From Gemmatimonadaceae bacterium (lineage in GTDB: Bacteria; Gemmatimonadota; Gemmatimonadetes; Gemmatimonadales; Gemmatimonadaceae), in the NCBI GenBank assembly GCA_031362845.1, contig JANLTI010000202.1:11420-75419 (forward strand): 64,000 nucleotides of DNA, in the 5' to 3' direction. This document shows, in pieces, positions 24,022-61,336 of the stretch (position 1 is the first letter of the stretch; each line of letters opens with the position of its first letter). Made by a program: the position numbers and the translations under genes. Under the pieces are notes generated by a model that did not search any database, had not been told where the DNA came from, and saw only the letters and a program-made list of their open reading frames with translations.

Positions 24022-24070
24022 GGTGAACCGTGAACCGTGAACCGTGAACCGTGAACCGTGAACCGTGAAC
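24022..24070. repeat. perfect heptanucleotide tandem array, GGTGAAC followed by (CGTGAAC)x6
   Basis: Read directly: ggtgaac cgtgaac x6. It lies between tRNA-Ala and the 3' end of actF. Confidence 0.95.
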
Positions 24071-24074
24071 GGCA

Positions 24075-24104
24075 AAGGCACCCCGAGTCATCCCGGGATG
24101 CCTT
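24075..24104 (-). terminator. possible hairpin terminator after actF
   Basis: AAGGCA (24075-24080) pairs with TGCCTT (24099-24104), and the inner part contains the palindrome TCCCGGGA. It sits 27 nt beyond the actF stop. No U-tract. Confidence 0.4.
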
Positions 24105-24130
24105 CGATGCGGCCGCGACCGTACCTCGCC

Positions 24131-25456
24131 CTACTCGTGCGCGGGGAGCGGTTCCATCGTGTCGGGATTGACCGGCACCTGGACTTCATCGCGGAATGCG
24201 GAGGTCATCAAGGTCACCCGCATGCGAGGAAACGCGTTCATGAACGCGATGTAGCACAGTCCCCAGGCGCCGACATAGCCGAGGGCGATGGCAATCTCCC
24301 ACAGCCCGAACGGCGTGTGCGCCGCCTCGCCGTAGAGGGACGGATACACCTCGAGATACCGCACGAGCCACATGCCCACGAGGCTGATGGTCGTGAACAA
24401 CGCGAGCGTCGGGTGAAAGACCTTTGCCGCGCGCGACAGCAACCCGAAGAACGGCGCGAAGAACACCAGGATCACGGCGGACACCGTGAGATGCACCCAC
24501 GGTGAAATGAGGCGAATGCGCGCCCAGTGTGTCTCCTCGCCCAGATTGCCGTACCAGATCACCAGATACTGCGAGAAGGTGAGATATCCCCAGAACGCCG
24601 TGAAGGCGAAGCACAGCTTGCCGAGATCGTGGAAGTGGTTCTCACGGATGATCGCATCGGCGTGGAGAAACCGTCGCCACGCCATGACGAGCAGCGTGAA
24701 GAGAGTGAGCGAGCAGAGCCACCCTCCCATGAAGAACCACCATCCATACAGCGTGCTCTGGAAATGCAGCGACAGCCCCATCGAGAGGTCGAGGGCGAGC
24801 AGCGACCACCCGTACCCGAACGCCAGCGCGAGGAAGACGGCGAGCTTGCCCTGCAGGGAGTGTGTGCTGTGCAGTTCGCGCCGCTCCTCCCCGAACCCGG
24901 CGCGCATGCGAGCGCGCAGTCCCCTGGCCCACGCCGCGCCCGCCTCGGGCAGCAGGCCCACGTCCAGCCGCACCGACGTGTAGATGTACCAGAGCGACAG
25001 CGCGGTGATGACGACGAACGACCCCAGCACGCGGGCGGTGAGGAAGCCGGGGCTGAACCAGGCCACCTTCTCGGGCACGGGCGGCACCTCGTGCGTCCAC
25101 GGAAAGATGTGGCCCTTGCCGAGCAGCACGCTGAGGACGAGGAGCAGCAGGGCCAGCGGCAGAAAGGCGACGTACCCTTCCATGAACCGGATGATCGGAC
25201 GCGACCATCTCGCCGTGGTGATGCGCTGCACGGCAACGAACATCACGCCGGCCGACGAGAGCGCGGTGAAGTAGAGCCAATTGAAATGGTACGCGCGCCA
25301 CGCGCGATCGGGTGCGAGGAACAGGCCCACGACGAACGCCAGCGCCCCGACGACGGCGAGGAGGAGACAGGCGGTGGAGATCGCCTTCGGCAGCGGCTTG
25401 GAGTACGCGGCCACCAGCTCGGCGCGTGTGGGGACTGGTGCGGCATGCAGGCTCAT
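24131..25456 (-). CDS. actF: alternative complex III subunit ActF (NrfD/PsrC-like membrane subunit)
   Basis: 441 aa polytopic protein, paralogous in character to ActC. Last gene of the act cluster. ATGA-type 4-nt overlap with actE. Confidence 0.82.
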   Translation of the reverse strand: MSLHAAPVPTRAELVAAYSKPLPKAISTACLLLAVVGALAFVVGLFLAPDRAWRAYHFNWLYFTALSSAGVMFVAVQRITTARWSRPIIRFMEGYVAFLPLALLLLVLSVLLGKGHIFPWTHEVPPVPEKVAWFSPGFLTARVLGSFVVITALSLWYIYTSVRLDVGLLPEAGAAWARGLRARMRAGFGEERRELHSTHSLQGKLAVFLALAFGYGWSLLALDLSMGLSLHFQSTLYGWWFFMGGWLCSLTLFTLLVMAWRRFLHADAIIRENHFHDLGKLCFAFTAFWGYLTFSQYLVIWYGNLGEETHWARIRLISPWVHLTVSAVILVFFAPFFGLLSRAAKVFHPTLALFTTISLVGMWLVRYLEVYPSLYGEAAHTPFGLWEIAIALGYVGAWGLCYIAFMNAFPRMRVTLMTSAFRDEVQVPVNPDTMEPLPAHE

Positions 25457-28221: not shown

Positions 28222-28232
28222 GGTCGCGCTCC

Positions 28233-31430: not shown

Positions 31431-31452
31431 GTGCAGAGGCTCCTCGGTCGGG

Positions 31453-32205: not shown

Positions 32206-32239
32206 GGTGGGGTGGAGGAAGTACGTGGCGTGAGGTCAC

Positions 32240-32255
32240 GGTGAATGCATTCACC
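32240..32255. promoter_or_regulatory. perfect 16-bp palindrome GGTGAATGCATTCACC upstream of actA (candidate operator)
   Basis: Read directly and self-complementary. It lies 35-50 nt upstream of the actA start codon, in the 182-bp intergenic region. Confidence 0.4.
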
Positions 32256-32387
32256 GATGCGCCGCCGACGAGCAAGTTTGTGCGCACGACGTGCCTGCCG
32301 CAAGGCAACGCGTGCACAATCGCGCACTCGTCACGTCGTCGTGCTGTCATGCGCCGCGCGCAAGCTCTCAAGATGAGGGTATGGCGG

Positions 32388-35343: not shown

Positions 35344-35374
35344 GCAACAAAGAGCGCCCGCGCGAGGCGGCGCG

Positions 35375-45311: not shown

Positions 45312-45368
45312 CAGGTCAACCTCGAGTAGAGTGTGGTACCGCGGAAGCGAACCCACCCATGGCAACGA

Positions 45369-47095: not shown

Positions 47096-47731
47096 CAGCT
47101 CACGGACGTCCAGTATCTCGTCCAGGTGGGCGGATATGTCGGGCTCACCGCGATCATCTTCGCCGAAACAGGACTCCTGATCGGATTCTTCCTGCCAGGC
47201 GACTCCCTGCTCGTCACCGCGGGACTCCTCTCGACACAGCCACAGTTCGGACTCAACCTCTGGTTGCTCGGACTGCTGCTGACGGTAGCGGCCATCGTTG
47301 GCAATTCTCTCGGGTACGCGATTGGCCGATTCAGCGGCCCGCGGCTGTTCAGACGCGACGATTCACTGCTGTTCAAGAAAAAACACCTGTTCCGTGCACA
47401 GGCATTCTATCAAAAGCACGGCGGCAAGACGCTCGTCATTGCGCGTTTCATGCCGATCGTGCGCACGTTCGTGCCCGTCGTGGCGGGTATGGCGCAGATG
47501 AATCTGCGCGCCTATACGGCCTACAACGTGCTGGGGGCGGTACTCTGGATCTGGTCGATGCTCTTCGTCGGCTACTTCCTCGGCCGATTCATTCCCGGCG
47601 TCGATCAGCACATCGAGAAGGTGATTCTCGTCGTGATCTTCGTGTCGCTCCTTCCGGGAATCATCTCATGGTGGCGAGAGCGCAATCGGCCCGCCGTCGA
47701 TTCCCCGGTGCGACCCACGACTGACGCCTGA
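47069..47731 (+). CDS. DedA/SNARE-associated family membrane protein
   Basis: Start at [13 protein letters not shown]. Motifs [20 protein letters not shown] and [15 protein letters not shown]. Confidence 0.85.
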
Positions 47732-47751
47732 CCCAGAACGGAGACCACAGG

Positions 47752-48354
47752 ATGCCGCACACGCTGCCCGCACTGCCCTACGCCACGAATGCCCTCGAGC
47801 CGCACATCGACGCGCAGACGATGGAAATCCATCATGGCAAGCATCACAATGCGTACGTCACCAACCTGAACGCGGCACTCGAGAAGGCGCCCGAGCTCGC
47901 GGACAAGCCGCTCGAGGAGCTCCTCAAGAATCTGAGCGGCGTGCCGGAGGCGATCCGCTCGGCCGTCCGCAACAACGGCGGCGGACATTGGAACCATTCG
48001 CAATTCTGGAAGACGATGGGCCCGGGTGGCGGCGGCGCACCGACGGGGAAGCTGGCGGACGCGATCACCGCGGCGTTTGGTGATTTCGAGAAGTTCAAGG
48101 AGCAGTTCAGCGCCGCCGGTGTCGGGCGGTTCGGATCGGGCTGGGTCTGGCTGGTGAAGGAGGGGGGCAAGCTGGCGATCACGAGCTCACCGAACCAGGA
48201 CAATCCGCTCATGGACGGAAAGGCCGCGCCCATTCTCGGCAACGATGTCTGGGAGCATGCCTACTACCTGAAGTACCAGAACCGCCGGCCGGACTACCTG
48301 AAGGCGTGGTGGAACACGGTGAACTGGGCCGAGGTGGCGAAGCGATTCGGGTGA
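47752..48354 (+). CDS. sodA: Fe/Mn superoxide dismutase (Mn-type features)
   Basis: [49 protein letters not shown]. Confidence 0.95.
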
Positions 48355-48426
48355 ACGGGAAATCGTGAATCGTGAATCGTGAATCGTGAACGGTGAGTCG
48401 TGAATCGTGAACGGTGAATCGTGAAC
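48350..48426. repeat. heptad array (11 units of the CGTGAAT / CGTGAAC / GGTGAAT type)
   Basis: Read directly: ggtgaac gggaaat cgtgaat x3 cgtgaac ggtgagt cgtgaat cgtgaac ggtgaat cgtgaac. It starts inside the sodA stop codon. Confidence 0.9.
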
Positions 48427-48427
48427 G

Positions 48428-48465
48428 GCGAGGGGCACACCAGACCTGGTCCGGTGTGCCCTCGC
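48428..48465. terminator. GC-rich hairpin between convergent sodA and the LVIVD gene (candidate bidirectional terminator)
   Basis: GCGAGGGGCACACC ... GGTGTGCCCTCGC: a 13-14 bp stem with one bulged G and an 11-nt loop. Confidence 0.6.
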
Positions 48466-48470
48466 TCATA

Positions 48471-48505
48471 CGGTTCACGTCTCACGGTTCACGGTTCGCA
48501 GTTCG
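48471..48505. repeat. inverted-orientation heptad array (CGGTTCA-type, 5 units)
   Basis: cggttca cgtctca cggttca cggttcg cagttcg. This is the reverse complement of the GTGAACC-type units on the other side of the hairpin. Confidence 0.85.
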
Positions 48506-48511
48506 CAGTAG

Positions 48512-50527: not shown

Positions 50528-50730
50528 GGGACAGGCTCCTGGAAGTTGGACGGCCGCCGGAAGCTCCGGCGAAGCGCGAGCGCTGTCAACGGCGTGCGCC
50601 GGTGTCGCTCGGGGAGGCGGCACGGCGCGGAGCACGGGTACATTCCAGAAGCGGCGAACGAACGCCACGCCCAGGGATCGCGACGCGGCAACCAGTCCGC
50701 CCGGACGATGAATCGACCCGTCACCCATAC

Positions 50731-51786
50731 ATGAACATGCCAACTCGCTCGTGGACCGGACGCTCGTACGGAACGGCGCTCACCATGCTGCTCCTCGCGA
50801 CGGCGTGTCGGACCGCGTCCCCCACGCCATCGTCGGTCGCCACTGCTCGCGCCGACACCGCGCCCTCTCCTCCGCCGGCGCGGTGGCTCACCATCATCGG
50901 CGAGTACGGACTGGACTCAGCGGACGTCATCGTACTCGAGCGCGGCGGACGGCTCTGGATGCGCACCGCCTCCATCGACACGCCAATCGTGGAACAGTCC
51001 GACGGCGGGTTCGTCACCGCCGATGCGCAGCAGCGCCGTATCACGTTCCGGCGTGGACCCACCGGGCGCATCGTGCAGCTCGAAGTCGACGGCGCCTCGC
51101 TCGCGCGCCGGCAGGTGGGACCCGAGTCGGGCAACCAACTCGTCATCACCCCGGTGCGCCCCCTCGACGAGCTGCGCCGCGAGGCGCTCGCCGCTCGGCC
51201 ACCGACGGAGCGCGGGTCGTTCCTGCCGATGGACCTGGTAGAGCTCACGACGCTCGATCCCACGATCAAGCTCGAGATCCGGTACGCCACGAGCAACAAC
51301 CTGTTCGGCGCGCCATTCTATTCGCAGGCGCGCGCGTTCCTGCAGCGGCCGGCGGCCGAAGCGCTGGTGCGTGTGAGCGCGGCGCTGCGGCCGCGCGGTT
51401 ACGGACTGCTCGTGCACGACGGCTACCGTCCGTGGTCAGTGACGAAGATGTTCTGGGATGCGTCGCCGGAGGAGAAGCACATCTTCGTCGCCAATCCTGC
51501 GCAGGGTTCGAAGCACAACCGCGGCGCGGCGGTGGACCTCACGCTGTACGAACTCGCGACCGGCGCGCCGGTGGAAATGGTGAGCACCTACGACGAGACG
51601 TCGTCGCGCGCGTACCCGGACTATCCGGGCGGAACGTCTCGGCAGCGCTGGCACCGCGCCCTCCTGCGCAGCGCGATGGAGGCGGAGCGATTCGCGGTGT
51701 ACGAGACGGAGTGGTGGCACTTCGACTTCGCCGAGTGGCGGCGGTATCCCATCGGAAATCTGGCGTTCGAGGAGCTGATGAAGTAA
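50731..51786 (+). CDS. D-alanyl-D-alanine dipeptidase (VanX/DdpX, peptidase M15D) lipoprotein with about 150 aa N-terminal extra domain
   Basis: Start at MNMPTRSWTGRSYGTALTMLLLATAC (lipobox). Catalytic-domain motifs RYATSNNLFG, LLVHDGYRPWSV, SKHNRGAAVDLTL, EWWHFDF. Confidence 0.87.
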   Translation: MNMPTRSWTGRSYGTALTMLLLATACRTASPTPSSVATARADTAPSPPPARWLTIIGEYGLDSADVIVLERGGRLWMRTASIDTPIVEQSDGGFVTADAQQRRITFRRGPTGRIVQLEVDGASLARRQVGPESGNQLVITPVRPLDELRREALAARPPTERGSFLPMDLVELTTLDPTIKLEIRYATSNNLFGAPFYSQARAFLQRPAAEALVRVSAALRPRGYGLLVHDGYRPWSVTKMFWDASPEEKHIFVANPAQGSKHNRGAAVDLTLYELATGAPVEMVSTYDETSSRAYPDYPGGTSRQRWHRALLRSAMEAERFAVYETEWWHFDFAEWRRYPIGNLAFEELMK

Positions 51787-51815
51787 TCGCGCTCGGCATC
51801 GTTCCATGGCAGGGC

Positions 51816-51939
51816 GGAGGGAATCCACGTTCAGCGTTTGCCGTTGGGCGTTCACCGATTGGCGTTGTAGGGCGGAGACGCATTGAAACCCGGAACGGTC
51901 CACGCCGAACGGGTAACGCGTCACGTGGATTCCCTCTCC
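51816..51939. repeat. palindromic intergenic element (copy C) with GGAGGGAATCCACGT terminal inverted repeats and CGTT-phased heptad arms
   Basis: Left end ggagggaatccacgt (51816-51830). Right end acgtggattccctctcc (51923-51939). Arms read CGTTTGC CGTTGGG CGTTCAC CGATTGG CGTTGTA, and on the other strand CGTTACC CGTTCGG CGTGGAC CGTTCCG. Confidence 0.85.
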
Positions 51940-51966
51940 CAGCGCTTGACGTTCGCCCACCCGGCC

Positions 51967-53487
51967 TCATCGCCGCGCGCGTACGAACGTGGTGCCGTAG
52001 GCGCGTACCCCGCTGACCGCCCCGGTGCCCGTGGGCACGAAGGTCAAGGTCGTCGGGTCGTCGTTCGGCGTCGGTCGGCTGCGGAACACGTCGTGCTCCC
52101 AGTGATCGAGCATACCGAGATCAGCCTTCTCGAACCGGGCCCGCAGCGTGCCATCCACGAGCGTGATCGCGATGCTCCCATATGCCGAGTCGGTGTATGT
52201 GCCGACGTAGCGGTCGATGGGTAGTGACGCGCGGGTGCCGATGGAGCGGGCGGGCGGAGCTGCCGATGCGCGCCGCGCCGACAGCAGCGTGCGCAGATCG
52301 GTGCTCCAGTCACGCGACGGACCCGCGCCATACAAGTCGAACACCTGATACATGAGCGCGTGCCGGAGCTCGGCATGATCGAGGTTGGCGAGCACGAACA
52401 CCCCGACGCGCTGCTCGGGCAGCAGCCCGATGATCGCGCTCATGCCGTCGATGCTGCCGGTATGCATCCACACCGTCTGCCCGTGATAATCCTGGACGAA
52501 CCAGCCGAGCGCGTAGCTGAAGAAGTGTGGCTGCGCGAGTTCGAGCGCCGGGTACTGGCTGGACGGCACGCGAATCTGCGGCGCGACCAGTTCCGCGAAC
52601 GTGGCCGGCGTGATGAGTCGACTGGTTCCGACACGACCGCTATCGAGCATGAGCCGCATCCACCTGGACATGTCGGACACGCTCGACCACACCGATCCGG
52701 CGGCTGCCACGGCATCCGTGCTGCGAATGGGCACGACACGCACCGTGTCGTGGACCAGGTCGTGTGGACTCGCGACGTCGCTCTTGCCGATGATACCCGC
52801 CACGAGCGGCTCCGTCTCCCGCATGTTGAGCGGGGCGAGCAGTCGCGCGCGGAGAAAGGTCTCCCATGGCATGCCCGAGAGTCGCTCCACCAGCACCCCG
52901 CCGATGGCGTACACGACGTTCTGGTAGTTCCAGGTGGAGCGGAACGAGCTGGTCGGCCGCACGTAGCGCAGTTGCCGCATCATCTGCGCGATGGTGTACT
53001 GATTCTCCCGCACCGTCCAGAACAGGTCAGTGCCCGGCAGCCCCGTGCGATGCGTGAGCAGGTCGCGCACGGTGAGCTCTCGCGTCGCGTAGGGATCGTA
53101 GAGCCGGAACTCCGGCAGGTGATCGATCACCTTGTCGTCCCAGCGCAGCTTGCCCTCGTCCACCAGCATCGCGAGCGCCGCGGCGGTCATCGCCTTGGTC
53201 GTGGAGCCAACGGCGAAGCGCGTGTGCTCGGTGGCGCGCGCCGGCTTGCCGACTTCCGCGACGCCGTAGCCCGTCGCGAACACGAGCGAGTCGCCGCTGA
53301 CGACGGCGATAGCGAGACCCGGCACGCGCCAGTCGCGCGCCGCGCGCTCCACGTAGCGGTCGAAAGCTGGCCAGTCGGGCGCGCGACGTTGTGCCTGTTG
53401 CGCGTTGAGCGAGGAGGCAAGCAGCAGGGCGGCGAGCGCGGTGCGCCTCAGCCTGGAGGGGTTCGCAATGAGTCGTGACGGGTTCAT
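51967..53487 (-). CDS. S12-family serine hydrolase (beta-lactamase fold; D-aminopeptidase/DD-peptidase-like) with C-terminal DUF3471-like domain
   Basis: Start at MNPSRLIANPSRLRRTALAALLLASSLNAQQ (signal). SxxK = FAVGSTTKAMTAAA. YxN-type NYQNVVY. Confidence 0.84.
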   Translation of the reverse strand: MNPSRLIANPSRLRRTALAALLLASSLNAQQAQRRAPDWPAFDRYVERAARDWRVPGLAIAVVSGDSLVFATGYGVAEVGKPARATEHTRFAVGSTTKAMTAAALAMLVDEGKLRWDDKVIDHLPEFRLYDPYATRELTVRDLLTHRTGLPGTDLFWTVRENQYTIAQMMRQLRYVRPTSSFRSTWNYQNVVYAIGGVLVERLSGMPWETFLRARLLAPLNMRETEPLVAGIIGKSDVASPHDLVHDTVRVVPIRSTDAVAAAGSVWSSVSDMSRWMRLMLDSGRVGTSRLITPATFAELVAPQIRVPSSQYPALELAQPHFFSYALGWFVQDYHGQTVWMHTGSIDGMSAIIGLLPEQRVGVFVLANLDHAELRHALMYQVFDLYGAGPSRDWSTDLRTLLSARRASAAPPARSIGTRASLPIDRYVGTYTDSAYGSIAITLVDGTLRARFEKADLGMLDHWEHDVFRSRPTPNDDPTTLTFVPTGTGAVSGVRAYGTTFVRARR

Positions 53488-53534
53488 CCATCCCCGATGG
53501 AAAGTACGACACCGGCAAGTGGACCGCTCCCGCA

Positions 53535-54716
53535 TCACGCCGTCTTCCAGATTGCGGTCAATACCCGCTGAAAATTGCCGCCGAGAATTCCTTCGATCTG
53601 CGCGTCCGTGTATTTCCGACGGATGAGGCCCTCCGTGAGATCGAACATGCGCTTCGGGTGGTCGAGTCCCTCGATGTCGATCTTCTCACGGAAGCCGTAG
53701 CTCCCCTTGTAGCCAGCGCGGAGCTGCTTGTTCGCCTCCGGGGGCATGTCGTCGTAGCCATCGAGGTCGATGTCGCTGCCCACGCCGAGAAACTCGGGGC
53801 CCACCAGCCTGGTCACGTGGTCGAAGTGGTCGAGCGCGTGTTCGATGGTGGTCGGCTCGTGATCACGCACGAACATTCGCACGCCAGTGATTCCCATCAC
53901 GCCGCCCGACTTCGCCATCGCGCGAATGGCTTCATCGGTCTTGACGCGCGGGTGACCCGGTACGAGCGCCCGGCAATTGGAGTGCGTGATGAGCACGGGT
54001 CGCTTCGAGGCTTCGAACGCGTCGAGCGTGGTGCGATCGCCGCAGTGAGACACGTCCACGGCCATCCCCACCGTGTTCATGCGGTCAACGATCGCCAGCC
54101 CGAAGTCGCTCAGTCCCTCGTCGCGACGCTCGGTGGCGCCATTGCCGATCAGGTTCCGCCCGTTGTAGGTCAGTTGTGACACCCGCTGCCCCTGACCGTA
54201 GAAGAAGTCCACGTCCTCCGGGCGACGGAAGTGACCGGAATTCTGAAGGCCGAGCAGCACACCTACCTTCCGCGACCGCTTGGCGCGCGCGAAATCTGCC
54301 GCGCTGTCCACGCGCATGAGCCGCTCGTCGTTGCCGGCAATGAATCCGTTCCAGCCGGCGAACCACACGAGCGCCGTCTGATACGGGTCGAGCCCGCCGA
54401 GTCCAATGGCGGGATGAAAGACGGAGATCCCCGAGTCCACGAACTTCTGGAAGTGGGCGTCGGTGAAGCTCTCCGCGTTCACCGTCCACTTCGCCTGCAA
54501 CGGAAAGTCGAGCGTGAAGGGCGCGAGCATGTCCACCACCGTCGCGCGTTGCATCAGCGCGATGGTGCGGGCCGAGTACTCCGCTCCGCGGAACAGTGTG
54601 TGGCGGCCGAGGTTGATCATCGCGGCAGCAACCGTCGGAGCGGCAACGAGAGCGGCACAGGCCGCAGCAGCAGTTTTCAGCAATGAGCGGCGGGAGACGT
54701 CAGTCGGCAAGGACAT
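53535..54716 (-). CDS. membrane (renal-type) dipeptidase, peptidase M19, Tat-exported
   Basis: Tat motif SRRSLLKTAAAACAALVAAP. Motifs DVSHCGD, LITHSNCRAL, HPRVKTDEAI, GVGSDIDLDG. Confidence 0.9.
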   Translation of the reverse strand: MSLPTDVSRRSLLKTAAAACAALVAAPTVAAAMINLGRHTLFRGAEYSARTIALMQRATVVDMLAPFTLDFPLQAKWTVNAESFTDAHFQKFVDSGISVFHPAIGLGGLDPYQTALVWFAGWNGFIAGNDERLMRVDSAADFARAKRSRKVGVLLGLQNSGHFRRPEDVDFFYGQGQRVSQLTYNGRNLIGNGATERRDEGLSDFGLAIVDRMNTVGMAVDVSHCGDRTTLDAFEASKRPVLITHSNCRALVPGHPRVKTDEAIRAMAKSGGVMGITGVRMFVRDHEPTTIEHALDHFDHVTRLVGPEFLGVGSDIDLDGYDDMPPEANKQLRAGYKGSYGFREKIDIEGLDHPKRMFDLTEGLIRRKYTDAQIEGILGGNFQRVLTAIWKTA

Positions 54717-54767
54717 TTGAGGGCTCAGAGAGTTGAGTGAGGGTGCAACCTCCGACTACGGGCTGCC

Positions 54768-54883
54768 GGGATCCACGTGACGTGTTTCCCGTTTAGCGTC
54801 CAACGTTCACCGTTCCACTGCATTCGCCGCCGTGACACGCACCACGGGCAGCGCCGAACGGGAAACGCGTTACCTGGATTTCC
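54768..54883. repeat. palindromic intergenic element (copy D) with GGGATCCACGTGACG / CGTTACCTGGATTTCC ends
   Basis: Left gggatccacgtgacgtgtttcccgtttagcg. Right, reverse-complemented, ggaaatccaggtaacgcgtttcccgttcggcg. The interior is phased every 7 nt by CGT (cgtttag cgtccaa cgttcac cgttcca). Confidence 0.85.
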
Positions 54884-54923
54884 GTTATCTCGCAACTGAG
54901 CAATGAAGTCCCTCGCGACTGTG

Positions 54924-56537
54924 CTACGGCGTTCGGCTTGCGCTCGCCATCGGCGGCCGCCGACGGAACGTGGCTGGCCCGGCCAGATCGATCTGCACTT
55001 CGTCCACCGTGGCGTTGGCGCTGAGCCGGAACTGGACGGGAATGGGGCCGAGCACCGGCGTGCCGAAACGCGTACGAAATGTGTCGAAGTGCCAGTGCTC
55101 GAGCGCGCCGTTCCAGTTGGGTCCGAACGACAGCAGCAGCTTGCCTGCCGAGTCGCGCACGGTGACGTCGCCGAGCAGGCTGTCGCTGTAGACACCGGCG
55201 TACTTGTCCAGCGGGAGTGATGGCTTCGTGTTCGGCACGCGAGACGCCTCCATCTTCTTCAGCGCTTCGCGGCCCCTCGCCCGTGCCGCCTCGCTGCGCG
55301 CGAATGCCTTGGCACTCCAGTCCTCCGGCGTCACGCCAAGGTGCAGATCGAATGCGCGGTTCATCAGCGTCGTCGGCATTCCGGAGCCGTTCATGTTGGA
55401 CAGGATCACGATCCCCATCCGTTCCTCGGGGATCATGCCGACCAGCGCCGTCATGCCGTCCACGTTGCCGCCGTGCTGCACCACGAGCTTTCCGCGGTAG
55501 TCCTGGAGGAACCAGCCCAGCCCATAGGCCTGGAGATGCGTGTACGGATTGCTCCTGCGCGCACCCGTATCGATCGGGATGACGATGTGCGGCGTCTGCA
55601 TCTCGTCGATCATGCGCTCGCTGATGAGCCGCTTGCCGCCGATCGAACCGCGCGCGAGCTGTAGCCGCACCCATTGCGCCATGTCGAGCGCAGTCGAGTT
55701 GATGGAGCCGGCCGGGCCCGCGTTGTCGATATTCCGCCAGTCCACGGCGCGTACCACCCCATCCACTTCGGCATGCGGCGTGGCGAGGTTCGGTCCGCCG
55801 GCGATCTGGCGAATGGACGTCGTGCTCGACGTCATGCCGAGTGGCACGAGCAGGCGATCGCGCACGAAGTCGTCCCATGTCGTATTCGCCATGTGGGCGA
55901 CGATCTGGCCCGCCGTGATGTACATGATGTTCTGATAGCCGAACTGCGAGCGGAAGCTCCACGTCGGCTGGAGGTAGCGCACGCGGCGCACGATCTCGTC
56001 GCGGTCATAGCCGGAGCCGTACCAGACCATCTCCCCGCGCGCGAGTCCGCTGCGGTGGCTGAGGAGATCGCGCACCGTCAGCTCGCGCGACGCATACGGA
56101 TCGGCGAGCTGGAAGCCGGGGAAGTAGAGCGAGGCGCGCCCGTCCAGCGACAGCTTCTTCTCGTCGGCGAGCATCGCGACCGCCGCCGCGGTGAACGCCT
56201 TGGATGACGAGCCGATGGCGAACACCGTGCGCTCATCGACCGCCTGGGTAGTGCCCATATGCCGGACGCCATAGCCCTTGGCGAAAATCACCGAGTCGTT
56301 GCGCACGATGGCGATGGCAGCGCCCGGTACCTTCCACGTCGCGAGCGCCTGATTGACGTACGCGTCCCACCCGGGATACGGCTCCCGTGACAACGACTGC
56401 TGCGCCGGCATCCGTGGCGCGGCGCCGGCGAGCGCGACGCCTGAGGCGCAGGCGATAATGGTGGCGCCGCGGCGCCAGGAGCGTGCAGTGCCATGCGACG
56501 AGCGCATCGAGCGCGGGCGATGCATCATTGGAGACAT
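54924..56537 (-). CDS. S12-family serine hydrolase (beta-lactamase fold), paralog of 51967..53487
   Basis: Signal-like N-terminus. SxxK = FAIGSSSKAFTAAA. GYQNIMY. Same C-terminal domain architecture as the paralog. Confidence 0.84.
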   Translation of the reverse strand: MSPMMHRPRSMRSSHGTARSWRRGATIIACASGVALAGAAPRMPAQQSLSREPYPGWDAYVNQALATWKVPGAAIAIVRNDSVIFAKGYGVRHMGTTQAVDERTVFAIGSSSKAFTAAAVAMLADEKKLSLDGRASLYFPGFQLADPYASRELTVRDLLSHRSGLARGEMVWYGSGYDRDEIVRRVRYLQPTWSFRSQFGYQNIMYITAGQIVAHMANTTWDDFVRDRLLVPLGMTSSTTSIRQIAGGPNLATPHAEVDGVVRAVDWRNIDNAGPAGSINSTALDMAQWVRLQLARGSIGGKRLISERMIDEMQTPHIVIPIDTGARRSNPYTHLQAYGLGWFLQDYRGKLVVQHGGNVDGMTALVGMIPEERMGIVILSNMNGSGMPTTLMNRAFDLHLGVTPEDWSAKAFARSEAARARGREALKKMEASRVPNTKPSLPLDKYAGVYSDSLLGDVTVRDSAGKLLLSFGPNWNGALEHWHFDTFRTRFGTPVLGPIPVQFRLSANATVDEVQIDLAGPATFRRRPPMASASRTP

Positions 56538-56637
56538 CCGGGGGAAAGGAGTCGAGGATCAAGCGGTGAACGCGGTGCAGCCTCGCAGCGCGCGAATCGG
56601 ACGATGGCGTTCGCCAGGGGAGTCTCGTCGTGCTGTG

Positions 56638-57972
56638 TCAACTTCCGCCGGCGATGGTCGGATTGTTGATGCGTTCGACGTCCGGCAACGGGAAGCAGGT
56701 CTGCGTTCCGTAGACCCCTCCGTACTGGTAGGCCGCGCCCGCGGCCGGCGTGAACGCGATGCCGTAGCGCCGCATGTCGCCGAGCCGGTGCCCTTCCATG
56801 AACAGTTCGCGACGGCGCTCTTCGATGATCTGCGCGATGAGGTCGGCCGCGGTGGCTCCCACCGGACGAGCGTAGGACGGCACGCCGGCCGTGCGCGCAC
56901 GCGCCCGGTTGATTGCGGCCTCCGCCTCCGCGAGGTTGCCGGTGAGGGCGGCATTCTCGGCGATGATGAGCTGGGCTTCCGCGTAGCTCGCAATTCGGAT
57001 CGGCGAGGTAACGGTGGCGTGCTTGGCCGGGATGAACAGCCGCGAGCCGGTGGCGGTGCCGTTGCGATTTAGGTCCGTCACGATGACGCGCGGGTCCTGC
57101 GTGGTACCACCGGGCGCGAGCACATTGCGGAACGATGGATCGACCGTGCTGAACGAACTCTGCGAGATCGTGATGAACACGGTGTTCTGGCGTCGCGAGT
57201 TGACGGCGTCGGGTGAATTGTTGAGGACGAAGGTCGCCGGGATCAGCGCCGCGTCGGCCGCCGCGGCCGCCAAGTTCGACCCGCCGCCAAGGTCGAGCAG
57301 CACGCGCGCGCGACCGAGTCGCGCCAGATTGAGCGTGGTGACGTCGTTCGCCGTCGTCGCCGCGGCGATGGCCTTTGTGAACCGGGTCACGGCCTCGGCG
57401 AACAGCGCGGGTGAATTCATCTCGGGCCCGAGGTTGATCGCGGCGCTGCACATGCCCTCGCCGAGCAGTGTCAGGCTGTAGCCGGCGTACGCGTACGACT
57501 GCCCAATCAGCTTCGAGCGGTTCGGCACCTCGGCGTCGGTCCACCCCTCGAGCTTGGCCGCCGCAGTGTCAGCCGTCGCGCGCGCCACGGAGAGCGGAGT
57601 GTAGATGCCGGGTTGCTGGCTCGAGCTCGGTGTGGGCGACGCGCAAGTGTTGGTGCCGTAAGTGGCGTTGGTGTTCACGCGGCGCGCGTCGTAATCGAAG
57701 TTCGCCAGCGCCGAGATGCCGACGGTTACCTCATCGGCGAACAGACCGCTACCGACCACGTACCGGCTGAAGGCGCACTCGAAGTCACCGATCGCGCCGT
57801 TCACGAGCAGTGGCGCGTTCGTCGGCACGTAAAGGGTCTCGACAGAGAGCGTTCCGGGATTCTCCTGCTTGAGACTCGTGATTTCGCTGCATGCCGTTGC
57901 CATCATTGCGAGCATACTCGCGGCGAGCGCCATGCGCCGGCCGGAGACCGATTCATTCAGTTGGTTTCGCAT
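56638..57972 (-). CDS. susD: RagB/SusD-family outer-membrane nutrient-binding lipoprotein
   Basis: Lipobox LAMMATAC. C-terminal signature IIEERRRELFMEGHRLGDMRRYG. It lies 3 nt downstream of a SusC-type gene. Confidence 0.87.
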   Translation of the reverse strand: MRNQLNESVSGRRMALAASMLAMMATACSEITSLKQENPGTLSVETLYVPTNAPLLVNGAIGDFECAFSRYVVGSGLFADEVTVGISALANFDYDARRVNTNATYGTNTCASPTPSSSQQPGIYTPLSVARATADTAAAKLEGWTDAEVPNRSKLIGQSYAYAGYSLTLLGEGMCSAAINLGPEMNSPALFAEAVTRFTKAIAAATTANDVTTLNLARLGRARVLLDLGGGSNLAAAAADAALIPATFVLNNSPDAVNSRRQNTVFITISQSSFSTVDPSFRNVLAPGGTTQDPRVIVTDLNRNGTATGSRLFIPAKHATVTSPIRIASYAEAQLIIAENAALTGNLAEAEAAINRARARTAGVPSYARPVGATAADLIAQIIEERRRELFMEGHRLGDMRRYGIAFTPAAGAAYQYGGVYGTQTCFPLPDVERINNPTIAGGS

Positions 57973-57975
57973 GGC

Positions 57976-60900
57976 TCAGAAGCTCAGGTTGACGGTCGCC
58001 AGCAGGCGGGTGAGCGGAGGCACGAGCCCCTGATTGCCGATGGCGGATGAGGTCGCGACGTTGTTGGTGTTGCCCTCGGGATCGAGGCCCGTGAAGTTCG
58101 TCCACGTGTGCAGCTCGCGGCCCGCGATCGTGACGGACGCCGCCGAGAATCCGCGGATGTACCGCGTCGGCACCGTGACCGTGGCCGACAGCTCGCGCAG
58201 CTTGGCGAACGAGCCGTCTTCGTAGTACTGGTCGGTGATGCCCAGCCCCGCGGCGCTGCCGACATGCTCGGCCAGGTACGTGGGGTCGTACTCGAGCGGG
58301 TAGTAATTGGAGCGGCACAGGTTGGCGCCCGCGGCACCCTGACAGCGAATGGCGTCGTTCGTGTTGTACGCCCGGTGGCCGCGCTTGAAGTCCACCAGTC
58401 CGTACAGCCGCAGGTTCTTGCCGATATAAAAGGTGTTGCCCAACGACCCGGTGGTGCGCGGTGTCGGCGTGCCGATGAACTGGAACGGTGCCGTGGCGCA
58501 GGCCACCGGCGCGGCGCCAGCGGCGCCCTCGCACAGCACGTTGATAGCGAGGTTCGTCACCGGATCACGATCCGCCGACACCACGCGCCGCGTGTAGATG
58601 CCGCCGATCGGACGACCGACGATGTTGCTCTGACCGGCGCTCAGCACCACGCCGCCGATGCCGCCGAGATCCTTGATCTCATCGCGGTTGGTGGCAAGGT
58701 TGCCGACGATCTCCCACGAGAACCCCTGGCGTGTGATCGCCTGGAGCGTGGCCAGCAGCTCGACGCCGGAATTGTCGACGCGGCCGAGGTTGGCGAACTG
58801 GCTGCCGGCGAAGCCGCTGGAGGGTGCGATGGGCTGACTGATGATGACGTCCTGCGTTCGCTTGCTGAACCAGGTGAAGTCCAGCCCGAGGCGCCCGAAC
58901 AGCTGGCCGTCGAAGCCCAGCTCCGTCTCCTTTCCGCGTTCCGGCTTGAGGTCGGGATTGCCGATGGTGTTCGGGGTGACGGCGCTCGTACCGCCCGGAC
59001 CCTGCGCGGGAGAGTACGTGCGCAGCGCGCTGAACGTCGCGGGCTGCCGCCCGGACTCACCGTACGCGGCGCGGAGCTTGAGACTGTTCACGTAGGCGTT
59101 CGCCGGCCAGAACGACTCCTCGTTCACCACCCACGCCGCGCTGACTTTCGGGTAGGTGATCCACTTGAAGTCCTCGCCGAAGGCGCTGTTGTTGTCCACT
59201 CGCAACGCGGCGGTGAGGAAGAGCCGATCGCCCCAGCCGAACTGCTGCTGTCCATACGCGCCGATGGTGGTGTTGATGGTCTGCGTCTGCGTCGCGGTCG
59301 AGGGGTTCGAGACGGCACTCACCGTCTCCACACCGAGGCCAGGGAACCCGGTGCCGCCGAGGAAGCTGGAGTTGAGCTCCGTGCGGAAGAACTGTCCACC
59401 GAGCGAGGTGGTGGAGCGCAGCGAACGGCTGATGTCGAACTTCAATGAACCCGCATAGTCCGCCGAGGCGATGGTGTTGCGGCGCAGCGTCTGGCCGATG
59501 CTGCCGGCGCCGGCGACGGGGCCGATGAACGCGACGAGATCCGGCGTCGCGAATCGCTCGATGGCCCGGCTGTCGTCAGCGGTGAGGTCGATGCCGGCGA
59601 CGAGCCGCTGGCTGAACCAGGCGGTGGGACGATGGTTGAGGGTGGTACTGCCCGTGAAGCGGTGTACGCCCTGCGCATTGTCGTACAGGGTCTGCGGCAC
59701 TTCGGGCGGAAAGTTCGGATAGTGCCCGCGCGCAGCGGCAAACAGGAGCGAGTGACCGGCCACGGCGCCGAGCAATGCTGACGCGCCCACATCCGCCCCG
59801 AGGTGGCCGGAAAGGTTGACGTAGTTGAGGCTCGTGCCGAAGTCCACGGTCTCGCTCGGCGCCACGCCGAGATTCGCGTGAAAGGTGAACTGGCGGAGTG
59901 AGTTGTTCGGCTCGACGCCGAGGTCGTTCTGGTAGGACCCGGACGCGTAGTAGCGCACCACGTCGCGCCCGCCAGACAGCGAGCCGCTGTATTGGCGCGT
60001 CTGTCCCCGCCGGAACAGCGGCGTCCCGCGCGCCTCCTCGACCTCCACCCCATTCCACGTCACGATCTCGCCCGTGGTGGCGTTGCGCGCATAATTCGTG
60101 GGCACGCGGCCGGCCGCATCGCGGAACCAGATCAGTCCGTCCTGCACCTGCAGCTTCACCGCGGGCTTGCCCGTGATGGCGCCCTTCTTCGTGATGATCT
60201 GGATCACGCCGTTCGCCGCCTCCGTACCGTAGATGGTGGCGGCGGCGGGGCCCTTGATGATCTCGATGCTCTCGATGTCTTCCGGGTTGATGTCGTTCAG
60301 TCGCCCTGACACGTTCGACGCCTGACCACCCAGACGGCCGGGAGGGGCGACCGGCCCGGCCGTCGTCGCATTGTTGACGCGCACCCCGTCCACGTAGAGC
60401 AGCGGCGAGTTGTCCAACCCGATGCTGCTGCGGCCACGGATCTGGATGCTTGGCCCTGCCCCGAGCCGACCGGTGCCGGGTGCGATGATGACACCCGGCG
60501 CGCGAGCGCCGATGAGACTACTCAGGCTCTGCGACGCGGACTTCTGCGTGGCTTCGACGGCATTGATCGTCGTCACCGCATTGCCGATCGAGCGGCGCAC
60601 TTCGCCGCCCGCCGTTCCCGTCACTACCACTTCATCGAGCGAAGTGGCAGACGCAGTCAGTTCGATCGTTGCGTTCGTAGTGCCGGCGCTCGCCACGACG
60701 ATGGATTGGCGGACGGACGCGAAGCCGAGACGCCGCACGCTCAACACATGAGTTCCACTCGGCACACCGAGGATGCGGAAGCGTCCATCATCGGCGGACA
60801 CCGCGCCGAGGCGCGTACCGTCCACCTGAATGGTGGCGCCGGCGAGTGGCCGGTTGCTGCGCGCCTCGGTCACCTGCCCCGTCACCGTCGCGACCGCCTG

Positions 60901-61011
60901 TTGGGCGACTACGGGTTGCGCGGAGATGAGCAGCCAGAGGAGTGCGGCTACTGCTCCCGCCACGATCCGGCACGACGGCGTCGCAGCCCGACATGGATCT
61001 GTTCGCATCAT
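57976..61011 (-). CDS. susC: SusC/RagA-family TonB-dependent outer-membrane transporter
   Basis: 1011 aa. CarboxypepD_reg domain (VTGQVTEARSNRPLAGATIQVDG...). Plug (IESIEIIKGPAAATIYGTEAANGVIQIITKKG). C-terminal beta-barrel ending LATVNLSF. Confidence 0.92.
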   Translation of the reverse strand: MMRTDPCRAATPSCRIVAGAVAALLWLLISAQPVVAQQAVATVTGQVTEARSNRPLAGATIQVDGTRLGAVSADDGRFRILGVPSGTHVLSVRRLGFASVRQSIVVASAGTTNATIELTASATSLDEVVVTGTAGGEVRRSIGNAVTTINAVEATQKSASQSLSSLIGARAPGVIIAPGTGRLGAGPSIQIRGRSSIGLDNSPLLYVDGVRVNNATTAGPVAPPGRLGGQASNVSGRLNDINPEDIESIEIIKGPAAATIYGTEAANGVIQIITKKGAITGKPAVKLQVQDGLIWFRDAAGRVPTNYARNATTGEIVTWNGVEVEEARGTPLFRRGQTRQYSGSLSGGRDVVRYYASGSYQNDLGVEPNNSLRQFTFHANLGVAPSETVDFGTSLNYVNLSGHLGADVGASALLGAVAGHSLLFAAARGHYPNFPPEVPQTLYDNAQGVHRFTGSTTLNHRPTAWFSQRLVAGIDLTADDSRAIERFATPDLVAFIGPVAGAGSIGQTLRRNTIASADYAGSLKFDISRSLRSTTSLGGQFFRTELNSSFLGGTGFPGLGVETVSAVSNPSTATQTQTINTTIGAYGQQQFGWGDRLFLTAALRVDNNSAFGEDFKWITYPKVSAAWVVNEESFWPANAYVNSLKLRAAYGESGRQPATFSALRTYSPAQGPGGTSAVTPNTIGNPDLKPERGKETELGFDGQLFGRLGLDFTWFSKRTQDVIISQPIAPSSGFAGSQFANLGRVDNSGVELLATLQAITRQGFSWEIVGNLATNRDEIKDLGGIGGVVLSAGQSNIVGRPIGGIYTRRVVSADRDPVTNLAINVLCEGAAGAAPVACATAPFQFIGTPTPRTTGSLGNTFYIGKNLRLYGLVDFKRGHRAYNTNDAIRCQGAAGANLCRSNYYPLEYDPTYLAEHVGSAAGLGITDQYYEDGSFAKLRELSATVTVPTRYIRGFSAASVTIAGRELHTWTNFTGLDPEGNTNNVATSSAIGNQGLVPPLTRLLATVNLSF

Positions 61012-61094
61012 GAGCTCCTGGAGTAGACCACGTTTAGGTCACCTTCGATCATGTCTGGGGCAGGTCGCGTTGGACGGTCCGATGCGAAGCAGGC

Positions 61095-61336
61095 GGAATC
61101 CACGTGACGCGTTTCCCGTTTGGCGTTTCCCGTTTGGCGTTTTTGCGATTGGCGTTTCCCAATCGGCGTTTCCCGTTTGGCGCTTCCCGTTTGGCGTTTC
61201 CCGTTTGGCGTTTCCCGTTTGGCGTTTCCCGTTTGGCGTTTCCCGTTTGGCGTTTCCCGTTTGGCGTTCTCACCGCGGTCACGCCCTGAAACGCGAAACG
61301 GAGCACGGGCAACGGGTCACTCGTCACGTGGATTCC
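61095..61336. repeat. palindromic intergenic element (copy E) with GGAATCCACGTGACG terminal inverted repeats and an expanded internal tandem array
   Basis: Left ggaatccacgtgacg (61095-61109). Right cgtcacgtggattcc (61322-61336). The right arm, reverse-complemented, reads AGTGACC CGTTGCC CGTGCTC CGTTTCG. Confidence 0.9.
61110..61264. repeat. 14-bp tandem repeat (CGTTTCCCGTTTGG) x about 11, made of two alternating heptads
   Basis: Counted directly: 8 perfect units, one 1-mismatch unit (cgcttcccgtttgg) and two degenerate units (cgtttttgcgattgg, cgtttcccaatcgg). Confidence 0.95.

What the first reader, a model, noticed from the sequence alone, without database searches (positions are those of the whole stretch)
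24022..61336. Family-level observation: a CGT-phased, 7-bp-periodic intergenic repeat family with REPIN-like inverted architecture
Five clear loci (24.0, 48.4, 51.8, 54.8 and 61.1 kb) and two weak ones (11.4 and 56.6 kb) share units of the form CGT[G/T]NNN repeated every 7 nt. Three share GGAATCCACGTGACG-type terminal inverted repeats and near-identical sub-terminal sequence (AACGGG[A/T]AACGCG). Arms occur in inverted orientation, as in REP doublets (REPINs/BIMEs). Unlike classical REPs, the arms are internally periodic and can balloon into perfect 7- or 14-bp tandem arrays. All copies are strictly intergenic, at gene ends. Three interrupt the SusCD locus. One supplies the stop codon of a gene. 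No transposase or RAYT-like gene is present in the window. I do not recognise this element type.
Basis: partly seen in the sequence, partly recalled or inferred. Interest (0 to 1): 0.7.

Follow-up and report, generated by a model that had tools for sequence, protein, structure and literature searches.

The report
Heptad-built palindromic repeat family, Gemmatimonadaceae
A soil-bacterium genome (family Gemmatimonadaceae) carries a previously undescribed family of about 100-240 bp palindromic repeats lodged between genes, whose two arms are each a row of 7-base units with a strongly conserved 5-base core; it is a new variation on the small mobile repeats already known from other bacteria.

Summary
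Regions with at least 4 of 6 in-phase CGT or ACG at period 7 number 9 in the window, against 0.5 in shuffles, and all lie in the five named loci. The two weak loci fail the test.

Three loci (E3 51820-51933, E4 54768-54882, E5 61095-61336) belong to one sequence family. I found about 15 more copies on other Gemmatimonadaceae contigs. Each arm reads GGAATCC, ACGTnnn, then five units of S-CGTT-nn. One side often carries an outer tail, GCCCG-N3-TCGAA.

Copies are gained, lost, truncated and resized between close relatives. E5 replaced the last codons of a gene and supplies its stop codon.

The arms of one element are no more complementary than arms of different elements. At orthologous sites the core changes 15% and the two free positions 42%. 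So each arm is constrained by itself, which points to reiterated protein contacts rather than a selected hairpin.

Single arms do not fold, there is no GTAG tag and no RAYT gene, so this is not a classical REP/REPIN.

Loci 1 and 2 are heptanucleotide microsatellite arrays beside terminator-like hairpins. They are related to the family at most loosely.

Best reading: a MITE/ERIC-like non-autonomous element with heptad-phased arms. The mobilising enzyme is unknown.

The parts
51820..51933 (.). Element E3 (114 bp), TIR to TIR. It lies between the convergent M15 dipeptidase gene (ends 51786, +) and a beta-lactamase-fold gene (ends 51967, -).
   Evidence: I2: 50-nt arms, 76% complementary; family HMM E = 2e-32; RNA fold -61 kcal/mol, z -5.1
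54768..54882 (.). Element E4 (115 bp) between a beta-lactamase-fold gene (ends 54924, -) and the M19 dipeptidase start (54716, -). One TIR is degenerate (GAAATCCAGGT).
   Evidence: I5; E = 2e-32. Positional orthologs are in L013, L012 and L038.
54752..54767 (-). Outer 'tail' of E4. On the - strand it reads GGCAGCCCGTAGTCGG (consensus SS-CAGCCCG-N3-TCGAA).
   Evidence: Flank alignment of 13 elements
61095..61336 (.). Element E5 (242 bp) between the SusC-like gene start (61011, -) and the end of the amidohydrolase gene.
   Evidence: (I1). The site is empty in orthologous loci L007, L011 and L008.
61109..61268 (+). Expanded left arm of E5: (GCGTTTCCCGTTTG) x 11.4, an amplified pair of heptads.
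   Evidence: (period 14, 90% matches, score 262)
61317..61336 (-). Last 6 codons plus the TGA stop (61317-61319) of amidohydrolase 61317-63101(-), supplied by the E5 terminus.
   Evidence: Homology to orthologs ends at ..GRIVRGHGWQ; the window then reads ERQGSIAGNRNPRDE*.
61337..61355 (+). Outer tail of E5 (GGTTGCCCGCGATCGAACC). It lies inside the amidohydrolase coding end.
48361..48425 (+). Locus 2, left array (AATCGTG) x 9.3. It starts 6 nt after the sodA stop codon.
48428..48469 (.). Locus 2, central G+C-rich hairpin (GGCGAGGGGCACACCAGACC..GGTGTGCCCTCGCTC), conserved in L038/L039. Probably a bidirectional terminator.
   Evidence: (whole spacer -80.5 kcal/mol, z -7.7)
48470..48509 (+). Locus 2, right array (ACGGTTC) x 4 plus (GCAGTTC) x 2, inverted relative to the left array. 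It ends 3 nt from the stop codon of the Big_2 gene (48512, -).
24023..24073 (+). Locus 1: a perfect (GTGAACC) x 7 array, one arm only. It lies between a terminator-like hairpin (about 24076-24105) downstream of gene 24131-25456(-) and tRNA-Ala(UGC) 23907-23980(-).
   Evidence: Orthologs.
53490..53534 (-). Possible footprint of a lost element in the M19/beta-lactamase spacer. It keeps the tail-like TCGTACTTTCC that follows a full element in L012, L013 and L038.
   Evidence: inference from alignment; weak
11372..11417 (.). Weak locus: GGGGATC...ACGGGTGGATCCC tips with no heptad arms. At most a deleted remnant.
   Evidence: Not detected.

Best explanation
E3, E4 and E5 are copies of a Gemmatimonadaceae-specific family of small, non-autonomous, palindromic repeat elements of the MITE/ERIC kind.

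Each end is a 49-nt arm: a terminal heptad GGAATCC, then ACGTnnn, then five heptads S-C-G-T-T-n-n. The master consensus is close to (GCGTTTC CCGTTCG)n. The arm is often preceded by an outer tail, TTCGA-N3-CGGGCTG-SS.

Shown:
- Copies are inserted, lost, truncated to solo arms and resized by heptad slippage between close relatives.
- They sit in transcribed spacers or on gene 3' ends.
- The pentamer core is conserved in each arm on its own, not through pairing with the other arm.

Inferred:
- The six in-phase cores per arm are reiterated contacts for an oligomerising sequence-specific protein. That protein is the unknown mobilising enzyme or an accessory or host factor, acting in trans.
- Once transcribed, the cores of the two arms pair as 5-bp helices separated by 2-nt internal loops. 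The resulting hairpins of -50 to -72 kcal/mol would act as transcript-end or processing barriers inside operons, as REP, ERIC and Correia elements do.

The perfect CGTGAAY arrays (loci 1 and 2) are heptanucleotide microsatellites that lengthen terminator stems. They are probably single heptads of the same repertoire amplified by slippage.
For: Family and spread:
- The TIR pattern finds a copy in a Gemmatimonadaceae MAG and three in soil metagenome contigs.
- Loci fetched through proteins, without reference to the repeat sequence, hold more copies: L011 x2, L012/13 x2, L014 x3, L038/39 x3. HMM E-values run from 1e-19 to 1e-36.

Anatomy:
- All 26 arms parse in one heptad register.
- Information content by heptad position is 1.15, 1.17, 1.44, 2.14, 1.29, 0.37 and 0.30 bits.

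Gain and loss:
- The amidohydrolase/SusC spacer is 20 bp in L007 and L011 and 305 bp with E5 in the window.
- The M19 and beta-lactamase genes overlap in outgroups L011 and L015. They are separated by a full element in L012/13 and L038 and by a solo arm in L014. The window has no element there.

Resizing: the E5 array of 14 nt x 11.4, and a 15-nt indel between the orthologs L001 and L004.

Homogenisation within a genome: all four arms of the two complete L014 elements share GGGATCC ACGTTKG GWGT.

Core constraint:
- At positionally orthologous arms the core differs at 35 of 240 sites (15%) and the free positions at 40 of 96 (42%), Fisher p = 2e-7.
- Third codon positions of flanking genes differ 26-35%.

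No pairing constraint:
- Identity at variable positions is 0.43 between arms of one element and 0.43 between arms of different elements.
- 75.7% of cells are paired against 75.0% in shuffles; 147 of 500 shuffles are at least as high.

Folding: whole-element RNA folds have z -3.1 to -9.7.

Context: 9 independent sites, 7 between co-directional genes (including hslV/hslU), 2 between convergent genes, 0 between divergent genes.
Against: - No target-site duplication is shared among copies.
- No transposase was found in the window or in any fetched locus.
- No two copies in one genome are near-identical, so recent transposition is not shown. Some presence/absence differences could be losses only.
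- Four of the 13 aligned elements were found with a pattern that demanded perfect termini. This inflates the apparent conservation of the termini.
- The protein-binding inference rests only on the conservation pattern.
- The arm comparison assumes no indels within arms, and orthology of E3 with its L038 counterpart holds only in flipped orientation.
Confidence: 0.5

Rival explanations
1. REPIN/BIME-type element: the arms are REP sequences mobilised as a doublet by a RAYT (IS200/IS605-like Y1 transposase) encoded elsewhere in the genome.
For: - Two inverted arms, a total size of about 100-120 nt and a strong whole-element hairpin.
- Location at gene ends.
- No target-site duplication, as expected for single-strand transposition.
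- An asymmetric outer tail, reminiscent of offset cleavage sites in IS200/IS605 ends (established knowledge).
Against: - Single arms have no hairpin of their own (z +0.4 to +1.5), whereas a REP is itself a short palindrome.
- There is no unpaired GTAG or CGTC tag at a short stem of 5-13 bp as defined in PMC3733652.
- No RAYT gene in the window or in any fetched locus.
- No arm-to-arm covariation.
Confidence: 0.12
2. Host-owned protein-binding arrays that are not mobile. Each arm is a contiguous row of 7-bp operator sub-sites for a small DNA-binding protein, for example a ribbon-helix-helix dimer wrapping the DNA as the omega/ParB protein of pSM19035 does on its heptads. The arrays would serve nucleoid organisation or operon control.
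For: - Five of the 7 positions are conserved in each arm independently of the partner arm.
- Solo arms keep intact cores: L014 1434-1482, and the TIR-less arm in L050.
- There is a documented precedent for contiguous 7-bp repeats in direct and inverted orientation, bound cooperatively, with at least 4 units needed (PMC9499535).
Against: - The elements lie at 3' ends and between cistrons, not in promoter regions.
- Sites are gained and lost between close relatives, and one insertion damaged a coding end.
- Conserved termini and a tail point to a transposed unit.
- No candidate binding protein has been identified.
Confidence: 0.15
3. RNA-level cis-regulator. The transcribed element is either a long hairpin or, when an oligomeric RNA-binding protein reads six CGU triplets spaced by 4 nt (as HutP reads UAG-N4 repeats and TRAP reads GAG repeats; established knowledge), an open form. 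This would tune read-through between cistrons.
For: - Seven of 9 sites lie between co-directional genes, including inside the hslVU operon.
- There are six in-phase CGT per arm.
- Predicted RNA hairpins are strong.
- No canonical terminators are seen in the region, so other 3'-end signals are plausible.
Against: - Both orientations relative to transcription occur (tail downstream at 4 sites, upstream at 3). An RNA reader of CGU would then see ACG in half the cases, though the palindrome offers both.
- There are no compensatory changes.
- There is no expression data.
Confidence: 0.1
4. The loci arose independently in place. Ordinary heptanucleotide microsatellites and terminator stems arose separately at each locus, with no common descent or mobility.
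For: - Heptamer arrays are common. Exact x3 arrays of arbitrary heptamers occur in 0-25 viral contigs each.
- Unit number and even unit length (7 or 8 nt) vary between strains at the sodA spacer.
Against: - The TIR elements share position-specific features that slippage cannot create independently: the GGAATCC ACGT termini, G at the start of heptad 3 in 26 of 26 arms, C at the start of heptad 4 in 22 of 26, and the outer tail.
- HMM E-values reach 1e-36 across unrelated genomic sites.
Confidence: 0.05

Closest known systems
ERIC/IRU and other bacterial MITE-like palindromic repeats (Correia/NEMIS, RUP, BOX); review PMC3184786
   Same: - Imperfect palindromes of 100-170 bp with conserved termini, no coding capacity and many copies.
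- Located in transcribed intergenic regions.
- Presence/absence polymorphism between relatives.
- Internal modules can vary in number, like boxB in BOX elements.
- Expected effects on mRNA through hairpins.
   Different: - The arms here are strictly heptad-phased, with a conserved pentamer core and two free positions per unit.
- There is no arm-to-arm covariation.
- No TA or other target duplication is seen.
- The phylum is different and there is no sequence similarity.
REP / REPIN / BIME with RAYT transposases (PMC3733652)
   Same: - Inverted doublet architecture, extragenic location at gene ends and genome-specific consensus variants.
- The transposase is absent from most loci.
   Different: - A REP unit is itself a short hairpin with a GTAG or CGTC tag. 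These arms have no self-structure and no such tag.
- The arm is 49 nt and built of 7 units.
- No RAYT gene was seen.
Heptanucleotide tandem repeats of bacteria: cyanobacterial STRR (own knowledge), GGGAATC of Xanthomonas and GGGGAYT of Nostoc (PMC4692102), TAACTGA of Beggiatoaceae (PMC4679880)
   Same: - 7-nt units in intergenic regions close to gene ends, with variable copy number and unknown function.
- This matches loci 1 and 2 and the E5 array.
   Different: - Those are simple direct arrays of one unit. The G-rich ones form G-quadruplexes.
- Here the units are degenerate at 2 of 7 positions, arranged as two inverted arms, and capped by conserved termini.
Heptad operator/centromere arrays bound by the ribbon-helix-helix protein omega (ParB) of plasmid pSM19035 (PMC9499535)
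   Same: Contiguous 7-bp sub-sites without gaps, in direct and inverted orientation, 6-10 units per array. This is a mechanistic precedent for a protein reading DNA every 7 bp.
   Different: - The unit sequence is different (WATCACW; own knowledge).
- Those arrays lie in plasmid promoter regions and there are three per plasmid.
- No cognate protein is known here, and the location is at 3' ends.
IS1380-family ends, e.g. ISEcp1 IRL CCTAGATTCTACGT (PMC6061673) and IRR ACGTGGAATTTAGG
   Same: The tips resemble each other: GAATCCACGT against GATTCTACGT or AATTCCACGT (8 of 10). Several copies have CC just outside GGAATCC.
   Different: - The similarity is short and was not tested statistically.
- ISEcp1 makes 5-bp duplications, and none are seen here.
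- No IS1380 transposase gene was found. This is a lead only.
Sub-terminal AAACGG repeats bound by the maize Ac transposase (own knowledge)
   Same: TIR plus many reiterated short sub-terminal motifs. By coincidence the complement of the heptad core is AACGG or AACGC.
   Different: That is a eukaryotic hAT element. Its motifs are irregularly spaced over about 200 bp, not contiguous heptads.

Membership tests
REP/REPIN (RAYT-associated) | Each unit is a short (20-40 nt) self-complementary hairpin | tested here: not met
   Four single arms folded as DNA give z +0.4 to +1.5 against shuffles.
REP/REPIN (RAYT-associated) | An unpaired GTAG (or CGTC) tag at one end of the stem | tested here: not met
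   The termini are GGAATCC ACGT. There is no GTAG. CGTC occurs only inside some arms (ACGTGAC), not as an end tag.
REP/REPIN (RAYT-associated) | A RAYT gene flanked by the repeats in the same genome | not testable with these tools
   None in the window or in fetched loci. No whole genome was available.
REP/REPIN (RAYT-associated) | Two units in inverted orientation forming one larger hairpin | tested here: met
MITE (IS-derived non-autonomous element) | Conserved terminal inverted repeats | tested here: met
   GGAATCCACGT at both ends in 12 of 13 aligned elements. This includes loci found through proteins rather than through the repeat.
MITE (IS-derived non-autonomous element) | Target-site duplication of fixed length | tested here: not met
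   No shared direct repeat at any boundary definition. A single AGGT/AGGT case at E5 may be chance.
MITE (IS-derived non-autonomous element) | Insertion polymorphism between related genomes | tested here: met
   The E5 site and the M19/beta-lactamase site, compared with outgroups.
MITE (IS-derived non-autonomous element) | A full-length IS with the same ends encoding the transposase | not testable with these tools
There was no hit in plasmids or viral contigs.
Heptanucleotide microsatellite (STRR-like) | Head-to-tail copies of one 7-nt unit, with copy number variable between strains | tested here: met
   - Loci 1 and 2 and the E5 array.
- A 2-unit difference among samples of one population.
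- A contig break inside the array in a 99%-identical strain.
- Not met for the degenerate arms of E3 and E4.
RHH-type heptad operator arrays (omega/ParB pSM19035) | At least 4 contiguous 7-bp sub-sites without gaps, in direct and/or inverted orientation | tested here: met
   6 in-phase cores per arm, with the arms inverted.
RHH-type heptad operator arrays (omega/ParB pSM19035) | A cognate RHH protein, and location in a promoter or centromere | tested here: not met
   No RHH gene nearby. All sites are at 3' ends or between cistrons, and no sigma-70-like promoter was found. Binding itself is not testable.
Any Rfam RNA family | Score at or above the gathering threshold | tested here: not met
   Only the tRNA reaches it. 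Nothing relevant at E <= 1 over 47.5-62 kb.

The most novel reading that the evidence does not exclude
The heptad cores are the genome-wide landing lattice of one oligomerising protein, either a DNA filament former of the ribbon-helix-helix kind or a ring-shaped RNA binder reading six CGU triplets. The palindromic elements would then be a mobile, self-spreading set of operon-internal regulatory sites. That would be a cis-regulatory network distributed by a transposable repeat, in a phylum where no such system is known. It would also give a mechanistic reason why 7-nt repeats are so common in bacterial intergenic DNA.
Probability: 0.15. Interest if true: 0.75.

Novelty: new variant of a known kind. 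Interest (0 to 1): 0.45.

Why it matters
- Small palindromic repeats (REP, ERIC, Correia) shape transcript stability, termination and genome plasticity in model bacteria. Nothing comparable has been described for Gemmatimonadota, a major soil phylum.
- This family adds an unusual design. The arms are made of phased 7-nt units whose 5-nt core is kept by selection in each arm on its own. This gives a clean, testable prediction of a protein that reads DNA or RNA every 7 nt.
- It also offers a link between TIR-bounded mobile repeats and the long-noticed but unexplained excess of heptanucleotide tandem repeats in bacterial intergenic regions.
- In practice the elements break short-read assemblies and alter gene ends (E5). 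They therefore matter for annotating MAGs of this group.

Tried and rejected
- REPIN membership: rejected, because single arms do not fold and there is no tag.
- Selected hairpin: rejected as the main constraint, because there is no covariation.
- Integron attC: considered because elements follow successive co-directional genes. Rejected because the genes are syntenic without elements in relatives and the termini lack GTTRRRY.
- Target-site duplication: searched at three boundary definitions. None is consistent.
- The (CGTGAAC)n arrays in 22 viral contigs first looked like a specific cross-phylum signal. Controls with other heptamers gave 25, 8, 10, 3, 0 and 0 contigs, so no specific link can be claimed.
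- L002 and L005 from the metagenome scan share only the 11-nt tips and belong to an unrelated organism with AT-rich spacers.
- Exact-protein look-ups of the window's M19 and sodA genes found nothing. The source genome is not in the collections.
- blastn of E3 against plasmids: no hit. TIR-pair scan of viral contigs: 0.
- Weak loci at 11.4 and 56.6 kb: not supported.
- IS1380-like ends: kept only as a lead.

Full report
**Setting.** The window has 66.8% G+C. It encodes ordinary chromosomal genes: transporters, two-component systems, a molybdopterin oxidoreductase complex, sodA, and a SusC/SusD locus with peptidases and beta-lactamase-fold proteins. The closest homologs of three window proteins all come from Gemmatimonadaceae MAGs or soil metagenomes, at 94-99% identity. 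The exact source genome is not in the collections.

- Tandem Repeats Finder reports (GTGAACC) x 6.9 at 24023-24070, (AATCGTG) x 9.3 at 48361-48425 with an inverted (ACGGTTC) x 4 at 48470-48497, and a 14-nt array x 11.4 at 61109-61268.
- The 15-mer GGAATCCACGTGACG, allowing up to 3 mismatches, occurs only at the six ends of three elements. The raw count of 6 is within the chance range. What is not chance is that four hits have at most 1 mismatch and that all hits form inverted pairs 100-240 bp apart.
- The sub-terminal motif has 18 matches against 2.7 expected.
- My phasing test counts regions where at least 4 of 6 positions spaced 7 nt apart carry CGT or ACG. It finds 9 regions, all in the five loci. 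The mean is 0.54 (maximum 2) in 50 Markov shuffles, and periods 5, 6, 8 and 9 give 0, 0, 2 and 1. CGT is always on the left arm and ACG on the right.
- The weak loci at 11.4 and 56.6 kb fail this test and the family HMM.

**Anatomy of the TIR elements.**
- I collected 13 complete elements from the window and from other contigs. Read from either end, every arm parses in one register: GGAATCC, ACGTnnn, then five heptads S-C-G-T-T-n-n.
- Information content per heptad position is 1.15, 1.17, 1.44, 2.14, 1.29, 0.37 and 0.30 bits. Five positions are therefore constrained and two are free.
- The first base alternates G/C in a position-specific way. Heptad 3 starts with G in 26 of 26 arms and heptad 4 with C in 22 of 26. 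This gives the 14-nt super-period that E5 amplified.
- Outside one terminus, and in degenerate form sometimes outside both, lies a tail: SS-CAGCCCG-N3-TCGAA. The tail came in with the element. It is absent from empty orthologous sites, and at E5 it now encodes part of a protein tail.
- Caveat: four of the 13 elements were retrieved with patterns that demanded perfect termini. Elements found through neighbouring proteins show the same termini.

**A family beyond the window.**
- The metagenome scan found three more, including the hslV/hslU ortholog and one between the convergent tag and ftsK genes.
- Loci fetched through M19-dipeptidase and sodA homologs hold ten more copies. HMM E-values are 1e-19 to 1e-36.
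- The window has only the three copies.
- There is no match in Rfam, plasmids, viral contigs, or in papers searched by sequence string or topic.

**Dynamics.**
- The amidohydrolase/SusC spacer is 20 bp in L007 and L011, and 124 bp without an element in L008. It is 305 bp with E5 in the window. There, homology of the protein ends at ...GHGWQ, and the last residues and the stop codon come from the tail and the terminus.
- The M19 and beta-lactamase genes overlap in outgroups L011 and L015. A full element separates them in L012/L013 and L038/L039, and a solo arm in L014. The window has a spacer of about 50 nt that still carries a tail-like TCGTACTTTCC.
- The two complete L014 elements share a genome-specific end variant on all four arms, GGGATCC ACGTTKG GWGT. 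This indicates proliferation or conversion within that genome.
- Arms change length by slippage: the E5 array, and a 15-nt indel between the L001 and L004 orthologs.

**What is under constraint?**
- The arms of one element are no more alike at variable positions (0.43) than arms of different elements (0.43). Pairing per column equals the expectation from column composition.
- The formal count gives 75.7% paired cells against 75.0% in shuffles, with 147 of 500 shuffles at least as high. The inverted repeat is therefore a by-product of each arm fitting one consensus.
- At positionally orthologous arms, core positions differ at 15% and free positions at 42% (p = 2e-7). Third codon positions of the flanking genes differ 26-35%. 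The core is thus held in place, or homogenised, while the free positions drift at or above the neutral rate.
- A solo arm (L014) and a TIR-less arm (L050) keep intact cores.
- Whole elements still fold strongly as single strands: RNA -51 to -72 kcal/mol, z -3.1 to -9.7, as 5-bp helices with 2-3-nt internal loops. Single arms do not fold.

**Interpretation.**
- The conserved termini, the tail, the shared position-specific pattern and the insertion polymorphism make this a family of non-autonomous elements of the MITE/ERIC kind.
- The phased pentamer core, conserved per arm, is best explained by reiterated contacts for an oligomerising protein. Contiguous 7-bp sub-sites read by ribbon-helix-helix dimers on pSM19035 are a documented precedent. 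RNA readers of triplets spaced by 4 nt, such as HutP, are another (established knowledge).
- Which protein does this, and whether it is the mobilising enzyme, is not known.
- The tips resemble IS1380-family ends such as those of ISEcp1. That is a lead only, and no target duplication supports it.
- Seven of the nine independent sites lie between co-directional genes, and canonical terminators are lacking. The likely phenotypic effect is therefore on transcript ends or processing. This step is inferred.

**Loci 1 and 2.** These are perfect or near-perfect CGTGAAY arrays flanking terminator-like hairpins.
- They do not match the element HMM.
- The sodA spacer keeps the hairpin but has diverged heptads in L038. 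In a sister population it uses 8-nt units, with a two-unit difference among samples.
- A 99%-identical strain's contig breaks inside the locus 1 array. In a 93% relative the same position holds a TIR-less arm that matches the arm HMM at E = 8e-7.
- The unit GGTTCAC is one substitution from CGTTCAC, and CGGTTCA occurs inside a TIR-element arm.
- My conclusion: these are heptanucleotide microsatellites, possibly amplified single heptads of the same repertoire. They are not family members by sequence.
- Heptamer arrays in general are common. The viral-contig controls gave 0-25 contigs per heptamer.

**Verdict.** The finding is real. It is a new, phylum-specific variant of a known kind of element, with an unusual heptad-phased design.

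Noticed in passing
L002 3155-3259; L005 1092-1196, 1718-1822 and partial copies at 1-160 and 4451-4890: Metagenome contigs MDSW01... have G+C-rich genes and AT-rich spacers. They carry several palindromic elements of about 95-105 bp with the same 11-nt tips GGAATCCACGT but an unrelated interior (..TTATCTGGTTAnATTTTGTAGGTCTCTTTTGCAA..). Each is nested in a GGCCAAGnATC/GATnnTTGGCC inverted repeat. This is a different organism and a different family. The shared tips may point to a related transposase type.
   Followed up: partly
L016-L037, L053-L098 (IMG/VR viral contigs): Exact three-unit heptamer arrays are common in viral contigs, at 0-25 contigs per heptamer tested. They often come in runs of different heptamers, for example L017 (CCGTGAA)4-(GTTCGGG)4-(GATCCCC)3 and L032 (GAGCCTC)8-(CCGTGAA)7. 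They are often near contig ends. L034 (33% G+C) has inverted (GGTTCAC)3...(CCGTGAA)4.
   Followed up: partly
L040-L049, sodA/Big_2 spacer (e.g. L040 10604-10672, L041 10604-10688): In ten samples of one Gemmatimonadaceae population, the convergent sodA/Big_2 spacer consists only of inverted 8-nt arrays, (ACGGTGAG)4 / (AGTTCACC)n. Four samples carry two extra units (16 bp). This is strain-level microsatellite polymorphism in a terminator-like stem.
   Followed up: yes
L001 7907-7942: A perfect 12-nt tandem repeat (CCCGTGAGTGCT) x 3 lies directly beside the hslV/hslU element. The L004 ortholog has a shorter, diverged version.
   Followed up: no
L014 40-75: The centre of element L014a holds a 10-nt repeat (GGCGTTTCAC) x 3. 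Slippage in these elements is therefore not restricted to 7 or 14 nt.
   Followed up: no
window 51967-53538 (-) start region, about 53470-53538: The longest ORF of the beta-lactamase-fold gene overlaps M19 by 4 nt. Comparison with L038 and L012 suggests that the true start is the ATG of MNPSRLIA... about 60 nt downstream. That would leave a real spacer of about 50 nt.
   Followed up: partly
window 47500-62000: No sigma-70-like promoter and only one terminator-like site (shuffle expectation 7.1) were found in 14.5 kb. Canonical intrinsic terminators with T-runs seem rare here, which fits a role for hairpin-only 3' structures.
   Followed up: no
L007 9896-10000; L008 9853-10000: Relatives that lack the E4-site element keep GAAA(G)ATCCAGCGG.. 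in the same spacer. This resembles the degenerate E4 terminus GAAATCCAGGT and may be a remnant of an old copy. It is not significant by HMM.
   Followed up: partly
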